Under the pieces are notes generated by a model. It was not told the DNA's origin, searched no databases, and was given only the letters and a program-made list of their open reading frames with translations. A program made the translations under genes and the position numbers. A DNA stretch of 5,816 nucleotides from the IMG/VR virus record IMGVR_UViG_3300013903_000020; one strand, 5' to 3'. How positions within the stretch are numbered: position 1 is the stretch's first letter; each line of letters begins with the position of its first letter. The DNA comes from a virus (taxonomy: Duplodnaviria > Heunggongvirae > Uroviricota > Caudoviricetes). Below, one piece after another: positions 814-5,635 of the stretch.

Positions 814-826
814 CTTTCCCCAAAAT
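814..826 (+). promoter_or_regulatory. Isolated copy of the TTCCCCAAAA motif; candidate integrase arm-type site on the far (P-arm) side of the icd segment
   Basis: CTTTCCCCAAAAT at 814-826 matches the three tandem repeats at 1175-1211 and lies about 120 bp upstream of where icd homology starts. Confidence 0.3.
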
Positions 827-911
827 AAAAACGAACGTCAATGAAATCAAACGGTTGAATAAAGTTGATTTTGGCTAATAAAAAAACAATAAAATAATTT
901 TTATCATTAAA

Positions 912-924
912 TATCAATTACTTG
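912..924 (+). promoter_or_regulatory. IHF-consensus-like site (WATCAANNNNTTR) next to the putative attachment core
   Basis: TATCAATTACTTG at 912-924 fits the IHF consensus at every specified position, in an AT-rich context about 20 bp upstream of the icd-homologous segment. Confidence 0.3.
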
Positions 925-943
925 AACTTAATGTTTTTATATA

Positions 944-1108
944 CTGCTGCGCCATATGGGCTGGACTGAAGCCGCAGACCTGATTGTTAAAGGTATGGAA
1001 GGCGCAATCAACGCGAAGACCGTAACCTATGACTTCGAACGTCTGATGGAAGGCGCTAAACTGCTGAAATGTTCAGAGTTTGGTGATGCGATCATCAAGA
1101 ATATGTAA
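944..1108 (+). pseudogene. icd: icd 3'-terminal segment (last about 54 codons of isocitrate dehydrogenase), phage-associated attachment-site copy, not a full gene
   Basis: Translation [54 protein letters not shown] matches the Icd C-terminus as I recall it. The frame is closed by TAA at 929-931 and upstream sequence is AT-rich non-icd DNA, so only the 165-bp tail is present. Confidence 0.85.
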
Positions 1109-1131
1109 TCACTACATGTGTTAAATATTGA

Positions 1132-1160
1132 AACGGGCGTATAACACGCCCGTTGTTTTA
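1132..1160 (+). terminator. Rho-independent terminator downstream of the icd segment
   Basis: Stem AACGGGCG (1132-1139), loop TATAACA, stem CGCCCGTT (1147-1154), then GTTTTAT. Sits 24 bp after the icd stop codon. Confidence 0.7.
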
Positions 1161-1174
1161 TGATGATGTAAAAT

Positions 1175-1211
1175 CTTCCCCAAAACTTTCCCCAAAACCC
1201 TTCCCCAAAAC
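1175..1211 (+). repeat. Three tandem direct repeats (C)TTCCCCAAAAC; candidate integrase arm-type binding sites (P'-arm analogue)
   Basis: CTTCCCCAAAAC (1175-1186), TTTCCCCAAAAC (1187-1198) and CCTTCCCCAAAAC (1199-1211) are head-to-tail, ending 11 bp before the int stop codon at 1222-1224. A fourth copy lies at 814-826. Confidence 0.6.
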
Positions 1212-1221
1212 TGGCTATTTT

Positions 1222-2364
1222 CTATGCTGTTTTGATATCTACGATAATCCAGTCTTTACCACGATCATCATTGTATCGGTCGGTCATTTTTCTGGATTTA
1301 TGGCCTAACAACTTTTGCGTATCCAGACCCTGTTCCCGATATAACCGTTCTGACAGAGATCGCTGCTCATGAAATGTGGGCGCAGTTCCTTGCTCCCATT
1401 TTATGCCACATTTTTCCCTGGCCTTTTTAAAAGCCGTTGTCAGAGTATTCGCAGAAACCTGGTCTCCTCTGTTTGCTTGAGAGGTTGTGTGACGGTAATG
1501 GACCAGATATTTACTAACAACAGCATCCCTGCACTGAGATATAACTTCACGAAGGGTAATATTCAGAGCATCGCATTTCAGGTTAAGCGGAATAGCAAGT
1601 TTTGAACCGGTTTTTTCCTGAGTAATGTGCAACATGTCGTCCCAGATATCAGAGAATTTCAAATTGCAGATATCGCCTAAACGTTGTCCAGTGACAAGAG
1701 CAAGTAGCATCCCGCATTTTAAATAGGGCTGCCGTCTGCTTACGCTGTCAAATATTGCCTGCCATTCGGGCAGTGATAATCTTTGGCGGTTTACTCGATT
1801 TCGCGGTTGTTTTGTTGCCTGCGCTGGGTTAAATCCTGGCGGAACATGTCCTGCGTGTTGTGCTTCTTTGAAGACGTCGATTAACACCATTCTCACGACT
1901 TGCGCCATCCTGTTATGACCTTCAGCCTTTACAGCATCAATTATTTCGGCAATATCAAGTGCGGTAATATCCTTGAGGTGTTGCATTCCACAATGCTCAC
2001 GGAAAAGACGAATGGGTTTGCCTTTTTGCCGATAGGAGTTGGGTCTTAGTTCATTATGTTGCAGCCTGTCCTCCTGGATAGAAATATATTTATCAAGCCA
2101 TTCTGTCACCGTAATGTCTGAGCGCCTGCCTTTCATTCTTTCCAGACGCTCATTGACGCTTAATATTTGTCGGGTACGTTGTTCAGCAATAATGGTATTT
2201 GCTTCAGTAGCAACTTGTTTTGCTTCATTCTCATCAGTTCCTAAGCTATGAAAACGACCGGATAGTGGATGTTTGTATTGCCAATATACCTTTCCGGTTC
2301 GCTTATCTAATTTGCAATATAAATTGGGTATAGAGATTTTGTGAGATCGGGGTCTAGCAGCCAT
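1222..2364 (-). CDS. int: Tyrosine-family site-specific integrase (e14 IntE / phage-21 Int-like, icd-targeting)
   Basis: 380-aa ORF with tyrosine-recombinase hallmarks: TGQR, H-E-Q-R (HxxR), and GHKS...TDRY with the catalytic Tyr near the C-terminus. It lies beside the att-like icd segment and overlaps the upstream xis by 11 nt. Confidence 0.95.
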   Translation of the reverse strand: MAARPRSHKISIPNLYCKLDKRTGKVYWQYKHPLSGRFHSLGTDENEAKQVATEANTIIAEQRTRQILSVNERLERMKGRRSDITVTEWLDKYISIQEDRLQHNELRPNSYRQKGKPIRLFREHCGMQHLKDITALDIAEIIDAVKAEGHNRMAQVVRMVLIDVFKEAQHAGHVPPGFNPAQATKQPRNRVNRQRLSLPEWQAIFDSVSRRQPYLKCGMLLALVTGQRLGDICNLKFSDIWDDMLHITQEKTGSKLAIPLNLKCDALNITLREVISQCRDAVVSKYLVHYRHTTSQANRGDQVSANTLTTAFKKAREKCGIKWEQGTAPTFHEQRSLSERLYREQGLDTQKLLGHKSRKMTDRYNDDRGKDWIIVDIKTA

Positions 2365-2590
2365 CAGCGATTATCCGTTGGAGTTTTGGGTTTGCGTTTA
2401 TTGGGAGTTGCGGTTCTGCAAGCGTTCCTACAAAACGGGAATTTCGGTCAATCATCCAGTAGCGACCAACTTTTATAGCTGGTGGGGCCATCATTTTCCC
2501 TTGCGCGTATTTTTTCAGAACTCGCTCACTTGGTGCTAAGTCCCCAAATTCTTCTTTAGCCCAGTCCTGTAAAGTGATTAGTCGAGACAT
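2354..2590 (-). CDS. xis: Excisionase / recombination directionality factor (XisE-like)
   Basis: 78-aa ORF immediately upstream of int with an 11-nt overlap and a strong SD (GAGGAGG, 4 nt before the ATG). Small basic protein in the canonical xis position. Confidence 0.8.
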   Translation of the reverse strand: MSRLITLQDWAKEEFGDLAPSERVLKKYAQGKMMAPPAIKVGRYWMIDRNSRFVGTLAEPQLPINANPKLQRIIADGC

Positions 2591-3500: not shown

Positions 3501-3552
3501 CTTTCATTAATCCCTGAACTGTTGGTTAATACGCTTGAGGGTGAATGCGAAC

Positions 3553-3576
3553 AATAAAAAAGGAGCCTGTAGCTCC
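3553..3576 (-). terminator. Putative rho-independent terminator for leftward transcription
   Basis: On the minus strand: GGAGC-tacag-GCTCC hairpin (plus 3562-3576) followed by TTTTTTAT (plus 3554-3561), 22 nt downstream of the stop at 3599. Stem is only 5 bp. Confidence 0.4.
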
Positions 3577-3598
3577 CTGATGATTTTGCTTTTCATGT

Positions 3599-3880
3599 TC
3601 ACCGTTCCTTAAAGACGCCGTTTAACATGCCGATCGCTAGGCTTAAATGAGTCGGTGTGAATCCCATCAGCGTTACTGTTTCGCGGTGCTTCTTCAGTAC
3701 GCTACGGCAAATGTCATCGACGTTTTTATCCGGAAACTGCTGTCTGGCTTTTTTGATTTCAGAATTAGCCTGACGGGCAATGCTGCGAAGGGCGTTTTCT
3801 TGCTGAGGTGTCACTGAACAAGCCCCATGTCGGCAAGCATAAGCACACAGAATATGAAGCCCGCTGCCAGAAAAATGCAT
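3599..3880 (-). CDS. Small hypothetical early-left protein (93 aa from ATG 3880; 71 aa if started at GTG 3814)
   Basis: ORF in the track. The first 22 residues (MHFSGSGLHILCAYACRHGACS) look non-native and the ATG lacks an SD. A GTG at 3812-3814 overlaps the TGA of a 27-codon upstream ORF (GTGA) and gives VTPQQENALRSIARQ... Confidence 0.5.
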   Translation of the reverse strand: MHFSGSGLHILCAYACRHGACSVTPQQENALRSIARQANSEIKKARQQFPDKNVDDICRSVLKKHRETVTLMGFTPTHLSLAIGMLNGVFKER

Positions 3881-3894
3881 TCAGTGGTTGTCAT
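3811..3894 (-). CDS. Candidate 27-aa hydrophobic peptide (MTTTECIFLAAGFIFCVLMLADMGLVQ), translationally coupled between two small genes
   Basis: ATG at 3892-3894 overlaps the TGA of the 63-aa gene (ATGA) and its own TGA overlaps the GTG at 3814 (GTGA). One predicted hydrophobic helix. Below the ORF-track length threshold; may be spurious. Confidence 0.2.
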   Translation of the reverse strand: MTTTECIFLAAGFIFCVLMLADMGLVQ

Positions 3895-4082
3895 ACCTGG
3901 TCTCTCTCATCTGCTTCTGCTTTCGCCACCATCATTTCCAGCTTTTGTGAAAGGGATGTGGCTAACGTATGAAATTCTTCGTCTGTTTCTACTGGTATTG
4001 GCACAAACCTGACTCCAATTTGAGCAAGGCTATGTGCCATCTCAATACTCGTTCTTAACTCAACAGGAGATGCTTTGTGCAT
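3891..4082 (-). CDS. Small hypothetical protein (63 aa), first gene of the leftward small-gene cluster
   Basis: ATG at 4080-4082 preceded by a strong SD (GGGAGG, 4 nt spacing). Acidic C-terminus and no obvious helix-turn-helix. Confidence 0.6.
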   Translation of the reverse strand: MHKASPVELRTSIEMAHSLAQIGVRFVPIPVETDEEFHTLATSLSQKLEMMVAKAEADERDQV

Positions 4083-4196
4083 ACCGCCTCCCGTTTATTA
4101 TTTATCTTCTCAGCCAGCCGCTGTGCTTTCAGTGGATTTCTGATAACAGAAAGGCCGGGAAATACCCAGCCTCGCTTTGTAACGGAGTGGACGAAA

Positions 4197-4619
4197 GTGA
4201 TCGCGCCTAATCAGGATGTCGTTGCCGCACTCATTGTGAATGAGTATCGAGCACAGGGCGGCGTCACCATCGATTTTCCTGATGATGTCAGTCGGGCACG
4301 CCAGAAGCTGTTCCGCTTCCTCGATAACAAATTCGATTCTGAAAAATACCGAAATAACGTGCGTGAACTGACCCCGGCAATTCTGGCGGTACTACCGCTG
4401 GAATATCGCGGCCACCTGGTTGAGCAGGATAGCTTCATGGCTAGGTTGGCTGAAATGGAAAAGGAACTCAGTGAGGCAAAACAGGCTGTCATTCTCAACG
4501 CACCACGCCACCAGAAATTGAAGGAAATTAGTGAAGGTATTGTGTCGATGTTTCGTGTGGACCCGGATCTGGCTGGTCCATTGATGGCGATGGTTACTAC
4601 CATGCTGGGGGCGATATGA
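4197..4619 (+). CDS. Early regulatory protein in the cII slot (possibly CII/YdaT-like), immediately upstream of the replication initiator
   Basis: The ORF is open from GTG 4077, but that start overlaps the divergent 63-aa gene and the first 40 residues look non-native. GTG 4197 has GGAG 9 nt upstream and gives 140 aa with a coiled-coil-like segment (MARLAEMEKELSEAKQ). Family not verifiable by eye. Confidence 0.5.
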   Translation: MIAPNQDVVAALIVNEYRAQGGVTIDFPDDVSRARQKLFRFLDNKFDSEKYRNNVRELTPAILAVLPLEYRGHLVEQDSFMARLAEMEKELSEAKQAVILNAPRHQKLKEISEGIVSMFRVDPDLAGPLMAMVTTMLGAI

Positions 4620-4705
4620 CAGGTTCAGAAATGGCGAAAGCCGGTCTGCTGGAACAGAACCGACTTTCAGGTGCAAATCGTAACACACTCATTGCGGGAG
4701 GAATT

Positions 4706-5635
4706 ATGGCAAACACTGCTGAGATATTCAATTTTCCAGTGCCGGATGCGGCACAAAAGGAGCCGCGCGTGGCAGATCTCGATGATGGTTATACGCGCAT
4801 TGCAAATGAGTTGCTGGAAGCTGTGATGCTGGCCGGATTAACACAGCACCAGCTTCTGGTCTTTCTGGCTGTCATGCGCAAAACATATGGCTTTAATAAA
4901 AAACTGGATTGGGTTAGCAACGAGCAACTTTCCGAATTAACCGGGATATTGCCGCACAAGTGTTCTGCTGCAAAAAGTGTTCTGGTAAAGCGTGGGATTT
5001 TTATTCAGAGCGGGCGGAATACCGGCATTAATAATGTGGTCAGTGAATGGTCAACATTACCCGAATCAGGTAAGAAAAATAAAGTTTACCTGAAAGAGGT
5101 AAATTTACCTGAATCAGGTAAAAAAAGTTTACCCAAATCAGGTAAAGGCGTTTACCCGAATCAGGTAAACACAAAAGACAAACTAACAAAAGACAATATA
5201 AAACCTTTTTCGTCCGAGAATTCTGGCGAATCCTCTGACCAACCAGAAAACGATCTTCCTGTGGTGAAACCGGATGCTGCAATTCAGAGCGGCAGCAAGT
5301 GGGGGACAGCAGAAGACCTGACCGCCGCAGAGTGGATGTTTGACATGGTGAAGACCATCGCGCCATCAGCCAGAAAACCGAATTTTGCAGGGTGGGCTAA
5401 CGATATCCGCCTGATGCGTGAACGTGACGGACGTAACCACCGCGACATGTGCGTGCTGTTCCGCTGGGCATGCCAGGACAACTTCTGGTCCGGTAACGTG
5501 CTAAGTCCGGCCAAACTCCGCGACAAGTGGACCCAACTCGAAATCAACCGTAACAAGCAACAGGCAGGCATGATAGCCAGAAAACCAAAACTCGACCTGA
5601 CAAACACTGACTGGATTTGCGGGGTGGATTTATGA
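4706..5635 (+). CDS. O: Lambda O-like replication initiator
   Basis: From ATG 4706 (SD GGGAGG at 4696-4701) the N-terminus MANTAEIFNF...VADLDDGYTRIANELLEA...MRKTYGFNK...SEQLSELTG matches the lambda O N-terminal DNA-binding domain as I recall it. An iteron array sits in the central linker. The ORF-track start at 4616 is probably a spurious extension. Confidence 0.9.
   Translation: MANTAEIFNFPVPDAAQKEPRVADLDDGYTRIANELLEAVMLAGLTQHQLLVFLAVMRKTYGFNKKLDWVSNEQLSELTGILPHKCSAAKSVLVKRGIFIQSGRNTGINNVVSEWSTLPESGKKNKVYLKEVNLPESGKKSLPKSGKGVYPNQVNTKDKLTKDNIKPFSSENSGESSDQPENDLPVVKPDAAIQSGSKWGTAEDLTAAEWMFDMVKTIAPSARKPNFAGWANDIRLMRERDGRNHRDMCVLFRWACQDNFWSGNVLSPAKLRDKWTQLEINRNKQQAGMIARKPKLDLTNTDWICGVDL
5057..5210 (+). 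repeat. Origin of replication: five 19-bp iterons (TTTACCyGAATCAGGTAAA, each an internal TTTACC/GGTAAA inverted repeat) followed by an A+T-rich segment
   Basis: Iterons at about 5057-5073, 5085-5103, 5104-5122, 5128-5146 and 5151-5169, then an AT-rich tract at 5170-5210. They lie inside the O-like gene linker, as in ori-lambda. Confidence 0.75.

What the first reader, a model, noticed from the sequence alone, without database searches (positions are those of the whole stretch)
1175..1211. Three tandem TTCCCCAAAAC repeats next to the int stop, with a fourth copy at 814-826
Three head-to-tail 12-13 bp repeats sit between the icd terminator and the int stop codon, and a solitary copy lies on the far side of the icd segment. 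This mirrors the lambda P'1-P'3 / P-arm layout, so they are candidate arm-type binding sites for the Int N-terminal domain. I do not know of this motif as a named site for icd-targeting integrases.
Basis: partly seen in the sequence, partly recalled or inferred. Interest (0 to 1): 0.5.

Follow-up and report, generated by a model that had tools for sequence, protein, structure and literature searches.

The report
Phage 21-type integrase arm-binding repeats
The repeats are the docking ("arm-type") sites that a phage 21-like integrase uses to fold its attachment site for insertion into the host icd gene; they are real and conserved, but already annotated in phage 21, so this is an ordinary, known feature.

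Summary
TTCCCCAAAAC occurs exactly three times head to tail (1176-1186, 1188-1198, 1201-1211), and a fourth copy, TTCCCCAAAAT, lies at 816-826. The 10-mer TTCCCCAAAA has 4 hits in the window against 0.04 expected.

The window is the attP-int-xis module of a phage 21-like lambdoid phage. Its Int is 99.2% identical to phage 21 Int and carries the lambda Int arm-DNA-binding domain. The repeats are identical to a feature annotated in the phage 21 genome (consensus YYTTCCCCAAAA).

Comparative evidence supports arm-type Int sites:
- In 42 loci from many Enterobacterales genera, a triple repeat starts 72-74 nt after the phage-borne icd stop, with spacing of 11-12 then 13.
- The motif falls into four classes (CCCCAAAA, TATCAAAA, CTGCAAAA, CAGTAAAA). 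The class matches the Int N-terminal domain in all 41 loci with an uninterrupted Int reading frame.
- The single P-arm copy sits about 127 nt from the start of host homology, and an IHF consensus starts 27 nt after it. This holds in phage 21-type, e14-type and ompW-targeting elements.

Direct binding was not tested. Xis also co-varies with the motif class, so it is only partly excluded as the binder.

The parts
814..826 (+). Single P-arm arm-type site (CTTTCCCCAAAAT; core TTCCCCAAAA at 816-825).
   Evidence: It is conserved in phage 21, in the attR of lysogen 04-00955 and in L058/L244/L285. e14 and PPompW each carry their own class motif at the same distance from the start of host homology: 126-128 nt from the 8-mer start.
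845..857 (+). IHF consensus site (AATCAAACGGTTG), H1-like. It starts 27 nt after the start of the P-arm motif core.
   Evidence: It is one of only two exact WATCAANNNNTTR matches in the window (expected 0.38). An IHF match with at most 1 mismatch sits at the same +27 offset in P arms of otherwise different sequence: e14, PPompW, L198, L302, L315, L319, L356 and L372.
912..924 (+). Second IHF consensus site (TATCAATTACTTG), next to the core (H2-like).
   Evidence: Phage 21 itself has one mismatch here (TATCAGCGAGTTG), so this site is less certain.
945..960 (.). Left edge of the phage/host icd homology. This is the inferred crossover (core) region and includes the palindrome CCATATGG at 952-959.
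   Evidence: The attP/attL/attR/attB alignment A1 and the E. coli genome hits, which begin at query position 346-351, that is window 945-950. The exact overlap region was not determined.
945..1161 (+). Phage-borne replacement of the icd 3' end (coding to 1108) plus the icd terminator (hairpin 1132-1154). It forms most of the long P' arm.
   Evidence: The segment is homologous to icd in 5425 of 5426 complete E. coli genomes.
1174..1186 (+). P'1 arm-type site (TCTTCCCCAAAAC).
   Evidence: It is identical to the first subsite of the annotated phage 21 feature.
1187..1198 (+). P'2 arm-type site (TTTCCCCAAAAC).
1199..1211 (+). P'3 arm-type site (CCTTCCCCAAAAC).
1222..2364 (-). int, a lambda-family heterobivalent tyrosine integrase. 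Residues 1-71 (nt 2152-2364) form the arm-DNA-binding domain.
   Evidence: Pfam PF09003 (E=1.8e-28) and PF00589 (E=8.9e-24). Full-length match to lambda Int structure 1z1b, E=2e-55. 99.2% identical to phage 21 Int.
2354..2590 (-). xis, an excisionase that overlaps the int start.
   Evidence: Pfam PF07825 Exc, E=6.7e-06. The same gene is annotated as excisionase in phage 21.

Best explanation
The four copies of (Y)TTCCCCAAAA(C) are the arm-type binding sites of the attP of a phage 21-type lambdoid phage that integrates into icd. There are three tandem sites in the P' arm (P'1-P'3, 1174-1211) and one in the P arm (814-826).

The proposed mechanism is inferred by analogy with lambda:
- The small N-terminal domain of Int (residues 1-71) binds these sites with high affinity.
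- The C-terminal domains of the same protomers bind the core at the left edge of the icd homology (about 945-960).
- IHF bound at 845-857 (and probably 912-924) bends the P arm so that each Int molecule can bridge an arm site and a core site.
- The resulting intasome carries out strand exchange with attB inside icd.
- The 217-nt phage copy of the icd 3' end and terminator lies between the core and P'1-3. This keeps icd intact after insertion and makes the P' arm unusually long (233 nt from the homology start to the first site).

Shown here: the repeats, their significance, the Int arm-binding domain, conservation of the motif and its geometry, and co-variation of the motif with the Int N-domain. 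Inferred, not shown: actual binding by Int, and which sites serve integration and which serve excision.
For: 1. The repeats are statistically real: 4 exact TTCCCCAAAA against 0.04 expected.

2. Int has the lambda arm-DNA-binding domain (PF09003, residues 1-71, E=1.8e-28) and aligns over its full length to lambda Int. It therefore needs arm sites, and no other motif is repeated in both arms.

3. The layout matches lambda as read from its own sequence. In lambda, P'1-3 are direct repeats spaced 10 and 11 nt, P'3 overlaps the int stop, and P1 has the same orientation as the P' sites.

4. Int relatives 81-84% identical in other genera (L076, L089, Kosakonia, Mangrovibacter, Trabulsiella) and 72-74% identical (Proteus, Morganella) keep the motif. 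Their terminator and spacer sequences are different. In 17 distinct class A sequences the motif columns are at least 90% conserved, against 40-70% in the flanks.

5. In 42 icd-linked loci the first repeat core starts 72-74 nt after the icd stop, with spacing of 11-12 then 13. The distance to the int stop varies from 0 to 77 nt. Where cargo genes separate int from the icd fragment, the repeats stay beside icd, 700-3200 nt from int. The repeats therefore belong to the att site, not to the 3' end of int.

6. There are four motif classes: CCCCAAAA, TATCAAAA (e14), CTGCAAAA and CAGTAAAA. Each goes with its own Int N-domain signature in all 41 loci with an uninterrupted Int reading frame. The one discordant locus, L111, is a chimeric int pseudogene whose last ~60 residues and P' arm are e14-type.

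7. The motif follows the N-domain even at other target genes. ompW-targeting elements carry CTGCAAAA x3 plus one P-arm copy. L168 targets a different gene, has Int only 48% identical overall but 80% identical over residues 1-40, and carries the class A motif.

8. The P-arm geometry is fixed. The motif core starts 126-128 nt before the homology start, and an IHF consensus starts at +27. This holds in the window, e14, PPompW and six further P arms of different sequence.

9. The phage 21 GenBank record annotates the same 37 nt as att subsites.

10. From memory, not checked: Wang et al. 1997 delimited the minimal phage 21 attP for in vitro integration (Int plus IHF) to 366-418 bp, with the outermost dodecamers at its limits. 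Here 814-1211 spans 398 bp.
Against: - The key paper was not retrievable.
- Xis proteins also fall into the same four classes, so co-variation alone does not tell Int N-domain apart from Xis as the binder. The decoupling evidence is limited. L168 Xis is only 39% identical to the window Xis, while class D Xis is 50% identical yet goes with a different motif.
- No IHF consensus (at most 1 mismatch) lies in the 233-nt P' arm between 960 and 1175. How P'-bound Int reaches the core is therefore unexplained.
- Only one clear P-arm site is present, against two in lambda. The possible inverted copy at 868-878 is at chance level.
Confidence: 0.87

Rival explanations
1. The repeats are binding sites for the excisionase (Xis), not for Int. 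Xis would polymerise on the tandem triple to bend the arm and direct excision.
For: Winged-helix excisionases bind short tandem direct repeats; the lambda sites X1, X1.5 and X2 are described in PMC4880445. A Xis of the Exc family is encoded next to int. Xis sequences fall into the same four classes as the motifs, so the co-variation argument applies to Xis as well.
Against: - The motif occurs in both arms at fixed distances from the core. Lambda Xis sites lie in one arm only, between an arm site and the core.
- The triple occupies the int-proximal P' position, where lambda has P'1-3.
- Overall Xis similarity does not predict the motif. L168 Xis is 39% identical to the window Xis and goes with class A, while class D Xis is 50% identical and goes with CAGTAAAA. 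Int residues 1-40 do predict it: 80% identity within class A against 54-60% to the other classes.
- An Int with an arm-binding domain would otherwise have no candidate arm sites.
- From memory: the outer repeats bound the minimal attP for Xis-independent integration (Wang et al. 1997).
Confidence: 0.07
2. The repeats are a transcriptional or post-transcriptional element, either part of the icd terminator region or a sib-like 3' control element for int mRNA, and not a recombination site.
For: They lie between convergent genes, 20 nt past the icd terminator hairpin and 10 nt past the int stop. Their distance from the icd stop is fixed.
Against: - The host's own sequence downstream of icd lacks them (attB in alignment A1).
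- They stay with the icd fragment when int is kilobases away, which rules out a role at the 3' end of int.
- A copy lies in the P arm, away from any gene end.
- The motif changes with the Int class although the neighbouring icd end and terminator position are the same.
- They are direct repeats with no dyad symmetry.
Confidence: 0.03
3. The repeats are chance or slippage products with no function.
For: Short A/C-rich tandem repeats can arise by replication slippage. One IMG/VR copy shows a variant, TTCCCAAAAAC, in the third repeat (L046).
Against: None of 200 shuffles reached the observed count. The motif, copy number, spacing and position are conserved across many genera while the flanks diverge.
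Confidence: 0.01

Closest known systems
Phage 21 attP repeats (GenBank OL657228.1 misc_feature 27563-27599, consensus YYTTCCCCAAAA; the 'repeated dodecamers' of Wang et al. 1997, J Bacteriol 179:5705, cited from memory)
   Same: The window carries the identical 37-nt triple repeat and the same P-arm copy. The icd 3' duplication, the terminator and the int/xis genes are also shared, and Int is 99.2% identical.
   Different: The window phage is a relative, not phage 21 itself: the att region is 94.6% identical to phage 21 and 98% identical to phages 4A7 and 3W. The GenBank note calls the repeats 'the integration site attP', but the homology with icd, and hence the crossover, begins about 230 nt away.
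Lambda attP arm-type sites P1, P2, P'1-P'3, bound by the Int N-terminal domain
   Same: Both use a heterobivalent Int with a PF09003 domain. Both have three direct P' sites abutting the int stop, a same-orientation site about 130-140 nt out in the P arm, and an IHF site between that P site and the core.
   Different: The motif is unrelated (TTCCCCAAAAC against MAGTCACTAT). Spacing is 12 and 13 nt, not 10 and 11. No clear second, inverted P2-like site is present. The P' sites are 233 nt from the start of homology, against 54 nt from the core in lambda, because a gene end and terminator are embedded in the arm. No H'-like IHF consensus lies in the P' arm.
e14 attP (E. coli K-12 cryptic prophage, IntE)
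   Same: Both use the same attB in icd. The geometry matches to within 1 nt: one P-arm site and three P' sites at the same distances, with an IHF consensus at +27.
   Different: The motif is GTTATCAAAA(C). IntE is 60% identical overall, and the differences cluster in N-domain residues 7-24. In K-12, cargo genes (ymfD, ymfE, lit) lie between the P' sites and intE.
ompW-targeting lambdoid prophages (PPompW, LC567822.1)
   Same: They belong to the same Int family (51% identity). They have a triple P' repeat with spacing 11 and 13, a single P-arm copy 128 nt from the start of the duplication, and an IHF consensus at +27.
   Different: The target gene is different. The motif is CTCTGCAAAAC. The P' arm is 125 nt, not 233 nt.

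Membership tests
Arm-type Int-binding sites of lambda-family heterobivalent integrases | The cognate integrase carries an N-terminal arm-DNA-binding domain. | tested here: met
   PF09003 Arm-DNA-bind_1, residues 1-71, E=1.8e-28, 98.8 bits against a cut-off of 22. Full-length alignment to lambda Int 1z1b.
Arm-type Int-binding sites of lambda-family heterobivalent integrases | Several copies of a short motif, distinct from the core sequence, lie in both arms flanking the crossover. | tested here: met
   One copy lies 127 nt left of the start of icd homology and three copies lie 233-266 nt right of it. All are on the + strand.
Arm-type Int-binding sites of lambda-family heterobivalent integrases | Sites for DNA-bending proteins (IHF) lie between the arm sites and the core. 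| tested here: inconclusive
   Met for the P arm: the only two exact IHF consensus hits in the window are at 845-857 and 912-924, and the +27 offset is conserved in relatives. Not met for the P' arm: no hit with at most 1 mismatch between 960 and 1175.
Arm-type Int-binding sites of lambda-family heterobivalent integrases | The motif co-evolves with the Int N-terminal domain in related elements. | tested here: met
   Four motif classes match four N-domain signatures in all 41 loci with an uninterrupted Int reading frame; the one exception is a chimeric pseudogene. The match holds at other target genes. Caveat: Xis co-varies too.
Arm-type Int-binding sites of lambda-family heterobivalent integrases | The sites are bound directly by the Int N-domain and are required for recombination. 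| not testable with these tools
   This needs EMSA, footprinting or att mutagenesis. The relevant paper (PMC179457) is not held.
Phage 21-type icd-targeting att/int module | Int is near-identical to phage 21 Int, and the repeats are identical to the annotated phage 21 feature. | tested here: met
   Int is 99.2% identical. The 37-nt repeat block is identical.
Phage 21-type icd-targeting att/int module | attP carries a replacement copy of the icd 3' end and terminator. | tested here: met
   Window 945-1161 is homologous to icd in 5425 of 5426 E. coli genomes. attL and attR of lysogen 04-00955 show the expected junctions.
Excisionase (Xis/RDF) binding sites | Tandem sites confined to one arm, whose motif follows Xis rather than Int. 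| tested here: not met
   Copies lie in both arms. The motif class does not follow overall Xis similarity (L168 39% against class D 50%) but does follow Int residues 1-40. Binding itself was not tested.
Intrinsic terminator or sib-like RNA element | Dyad symmetry or a hairpin, and a position tied to a gene end. | tested here: not met
   They are direct repeats without an inverted partner. The only terminator-like hairpin is the separate one at 1132-1154. The repeats do not stay with int.

The most novel reading that the evidence does not exclude
The most novel reading still open concerns the whole Int family, not this window. The family spans Enterobacterales and targets icd, ompW and other genes. 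It forms a natural series of at least four arm-site specificities: CCCCAAAA, TATCAAAA, CTGCAAAA and CAGTAAAA. All are built on one rigid scaffold:
- a P-arm site about 127 nt from the core, with an IHF consensus at +27;
- three P' sites spaced 11-12 then 13 nt;
- a P' arm length fixed to within 1 nt for each target gene.

This would give a readable recognition code for the Int N-domain, since the class-specific residues cluster at positions 7-24. It would also explain why tandem residents at icd, such as phage 21 and e14, do not excise each other efficiently. The 233-nt P' arm without an IHF consensus would imply a different way of closing the intasome than in lambda. The phage 21/e14 pair of this picture is published; the family-wide picture may not be.
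Probability: 0.35. Interest if true: 0.45.

Novelty: already known. Interest (0 to 1): 0.2.

Why it matters
For this window, the result simply identifies the attP arm sites of a phage 21-type integration module. That helps with annotation: attP runs from about 814 to 1211, and the crossover lies near 945-960, not at the repeats as the GenBank note suggests. The comparative data go further. They show that arm-site specificity in this integrase family is modular and has diversified while the geometry stayed fixed. This could be used to engineer orthogonal integrases, and it could explain how two prophages can share one attB without cross-excision. The core claim adds nothing new to phage biology.

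Tried and rejected
- **Literature.** Wang et al. 1997 (PMC179457) and Fadeev et al. 2009 (PMC2739574) are not held. Full-text searches for the motif, 'dodecamer', and phage 21/e14/arm terms found nothing describing these sites. The SfI and HE-PICI papers mention e14 or icd but not these sites. The published experimental support is therefore cited from memory only.
- **IMG/VR loci found with Int.** Most end exactly at the int stop and were useless for the att region. Only 9 of 80 had downstream DNA.
- **Gapped pattern scans of viral contigs for P-arm geometry.** These saturated with chance hits. Only 8 loci, filtered for a true icd continuation, were usable.
- **Co-variation as proof that Int is the binder.** I rejected this as sufficient because Xis co-varies too. 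Only partial decoupling was found.
- **A second, inverted P2-like site at 868-878.** It has 3 mismatches, is at chance level and has no counterpart in e14, so I do not claim it.
- **An H'-like IHF site in the P' arm.** None was found.
- **Exact crossover position.** It cannot be fixed from the lysogen comparison because icd polymorphisms differ between strains.

Full report
**Observation.** The sequence shows TTCCCCAAAAC exactly at 1176-1186, 1188-1198 and 1201-1211 on the + strand, with spacing of 12 and 13 nt. A fourth + strand copy at 816-826 ends in T rather than C. Tandem Repeats Finder reports the array with period 12-13, 3 copies and score 58-60. The 10-mer TTCCCCAAAA has four exact hits in the window, all in this region. 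The chance expectation is 0.04, and 0 of 200 shuffles reached four. An icd 3' end occupies 956-1108. The only terminator-like hairpin in 700-1300 is at 1132-1154. The int stop lies at 1222-1224 on the - strand.

**What the window is.** The ORF at 1222-2364 (-) is a lambda-family tyrosine integrase. It has the arm-DNA-binding domain PF09003 at residues 1-71 (E=1.8e-28) and the catalytic domain PF00589. It aligns over its full length to lambda Int structures (1z1b, E=2e-55). The overlapping ORF at 2354-2590 (-) is an Exc-family excisionase. The att-int region is 98% identical to coliphages 4A7, 3W, 1W and 4C10, and 94.6% identical to phage 21. Int is 99.2% identical to phage 21 Int. Window 945-1161 is homologous to the 3' end and terminator of icd in 5425 of 5426 complete E. 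coli genomes. I aligned the window with attL and attR of lysogen 04-00955, an empty attB and phage 21 attP. This shows that phage/host homology begins at about 945, so the window is in the attP configuration. The arms are therefore defined as follows. The solitary copy is in the P arm, with its 8-mer core starting 127 nt left of the homology start. The triple is in the P' arm, 233-266 nt to the right, beyond the embedded icd end and terminator.

**Already annotated.** That stretch is identical to window 1174-1210. From memory, Wang et al. 1997 (J Bacteriol 179:5705) reported three relevant things. The minimal phage 21 attP for Int plus IHF integration in vitro is 366-418 bp. Its outer limits include the outermost 'repeated dodecamers' proposed as arm sites in S. 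J. Schneider's 1992 thesis. The large size is due to about 209 bp of icd homology. The span 814-1211 is 398 bp, which fits. I could not retrieve the paper or find text describing the sites, so this point rests on memory.

**Comparative test: e14.** The cryptic prophage e14 of E. coli K-12 uses the same attB, and its IntE is 60% identical to the window Int. It has GGTTATCAAAA / TTTTATCAAAA / GTTATCAAAAC immediately after its icd terminator, and one GGTTATCAAAAC in its P arm. I registered both elements on the shared GCGCCA of the core region. The e14 P-arm core then falls at the position equivalent to window 818, which is identical. Its first P' core falls at 1179, against 1178 in the window. 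An e14-like phage, 689R6, shows the same repeats.

**Comparative test: the wider family.** A scan of one genome per species with an Int alignment returned 80 loci from many Enterobacterales genera, with Int 48-100% identical.
- In 42 loci with an icd fragment near int, every one has tandem repeats whose first core begins 72-74 nt after the icd stop. Spacing is 11-12 then 13 nt. The distance from the last repeat to the int stop varies from 0 to 77 nt.
- Where cargo genes separate int from the icd fragment, the repeats stay next to icd, 700-3200 nt from int.
- Within class A (17 distinct sequences) the motif columns are at least 90% conserved, while spacer and flank columns are 40-70% conserved. 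The same holds for class B.
- IMG/VR relatives with Int about 83% identical (L076, L089) keep CTTCCCCAAAA three times, although their terminator and flanks are different in sequence.

**Co-variation with the Int N-domain.** Four motif classes appear:
- Class A, CCCCAAAA, goes with PNLY[CR]KLDKR[TN]GK.YWQYKH.
- Class B, TATCAAAA, goes with PNLYPL[YFL]SRK..KVYWRY[KR]H.
- Class C, CTGCAAAA, goes with PGL[SF]C[YH]TD.RT.K.YWRYKH.
- Class D, CAGTAAAA, goes with [PQ]NLFCF.DPRTKR.YWQYKH.

Motif class and N-domain signature agree in all 41 loci with an uninterrupted Int reading frame. The single discordant locus, L111, has an int with an internal stop. Its body is class A, but its last ~60 residues are 93-95% identical to class B, and its P' arm is class B. 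It is a recombinant pseudogene and not a true exception.

The pairing also holds at other targets. ompW-targeting prophages (Int about 51% identical, class C-like N-domain) carry CTCTGCAAAAC three times, spaced 11 and 13 nt, right after the phage-borne ompW stop. They also carry one CTCCTGCAAAAC in the P arm, 128 nt from the duplication start. L168 lies beside the 3' end of a different gene and has an Int only 48% identical overall. Its residues 1-40 are 80% identical to the window Int, and it has class A repeats.

**IHF sites.** The only two exact WATCAANNNNTTR matches in the 5.8-kb window are at 845-857 and 912-924. Both lie between the P-arm copy and the core (expected 0.38 in the whole window). 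The first starts 27 nt after the start of the motif core. An IHF match with at most 1 mismatch sits at the same +27 offset in e14, PPompW and six further P arms of different sequence, from classes A and B. The gap from motif to core in those loci is 120-122 nt. This fixed arm site-IHF-core module is what a lambda-type intasome requires (organisation as described in PMC4880445). Lambda's own sequence confirms the analogy. P1 lies on the + strand at about -140. P2 is inverted. P'1-3 are direct repeats spaced 10 and 11 nt, and P'3 overlaps the int stop.

**Weak points.**
- Xis proteins fall into the same classes, so co-variation alone cannot tell Xis from the Int N-domain as the binder. The decoupling is only partial. 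L168 Xis is 39% identical to the window Xis, no closer than Xis of classes B-D (36-50%), yet L168 has the class A motif. Class D Xis is the closest at 50% but goes with a different motif. Int residues 1-40 track the motif in every case.
- There is no IHF consensus (at most 1 mismatch) in the P' arm between 960 and 1175. How Int bound 233 nt away reaches the core is unexplained. The +/-1 nt constancy of that distance suggests a phasing constraint.
- Only one convincing P-arm site exists. The inverted TTAGCCAAAAT at 868-878 is at chance level.
- Binding itself was not tested.

**Rivals.** A transcriptional or 3'-UTR role is unlikely for four reasons. The host's own icd downstream region lacks the repeats. 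The repeats do not stay with int. One copy lies in the P arm. The repeats have no dyad symmetry. Chance is excluded. Xis binding keeps a small probability.

**Verdict.** The feature is already known: it is annotated in phage 21 and, to my recollection, published in 1997. Interest is low. The family-wide picture of four specificity classes on one conserved scaffold is a modest by-product that may not have been described.

Noticed in passing
window 3891-4619: A DUF1382 gene (3891-4082, - strand) directly abuts a 5'-truncated YdaT-like ORF (4077-4619, + strand; the Pfam match starts at residue 68), followed by the O replication gene. The exo/bet/gam/kil and immunity (cI/cro) genes that lie between these in prophage 04-00955 are missing, and phage hits stop at 4209. 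This looks like a deletion or mosaic junction, so the element may be defective.
   Followed up: partly
window 5057-5169: There are tandem repeats of about 19-23 nt (TTACCCGAATCAGGTAAA-like, about 4 copies) inside the O replication gene (PF04492). These are most likely lambda-type ori iterons.
   Followed up: no
L111 (Providencia alcalifaciens JAOQNJ010000001.1), int at 3501-4634: This int is a pseudogene with an internal stop. It is a chimera: class A (phage 21-type) over most of its length, but e14-type over the last ~60 residues and in the adjoining P' arm. L112 on the same contig, about 13 kb away, is a second element. This suggests recombination between tandem icd-resident elements.
   Followed up: partly
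L040, L053 and L076, about 300-420 nt downstream of the int stop: A phage 21-type P' arm and icd fragment are joined to a P arm that carries the e14-type motif (GGTTATCAAAAC). This is the hybrid junction expected when a phage 21-type and an e14-type element sit in tandem at icd.
   Followed up: no
window 960-1175 (P' arm): No IHF consensus with at most 1 mismatch lies in the 233-nt P' arm. Yet the distance from the icd stop to the first repeat is held at 72-74 nt in 42 loci whose spacer sequences differ. The bending or looping mechanism for this long arm is unexplained.
   Followed up: partly
L001 2011-2047 (OL657228.1 27563-27599): The GenBank note labels the triple repeat as 'integration site attP'. 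The homology with icd, and hence the crossover, starts about 230 nt upstream, so the annotation confuses arm sites with the recombination site.
   Followed up: yes
window 952-959 and 868-878: The palindrome CCATATGG lies at the left edge of the icd homology and is a candidate core element. A degenerate inverted motif copy, TTAGCCAAAAT (3 mismatches), lies in the P arm and might be a P2-like site, but it is at chance level and e14 has no equivalent.
   Followed up: partly
L090 (contig USAL01000018.1, labelled 'uncultured Sutterella sp.') and L092 (labelled 'Vagococcus sp.'): These records carry Int 100% and 82% identical to the window Int, with enterobacterial icd fragments. They are assigned to non-enterobacterial taxa, which probably reflects binning or contamination errors in those assemblies.
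   Followed up: no
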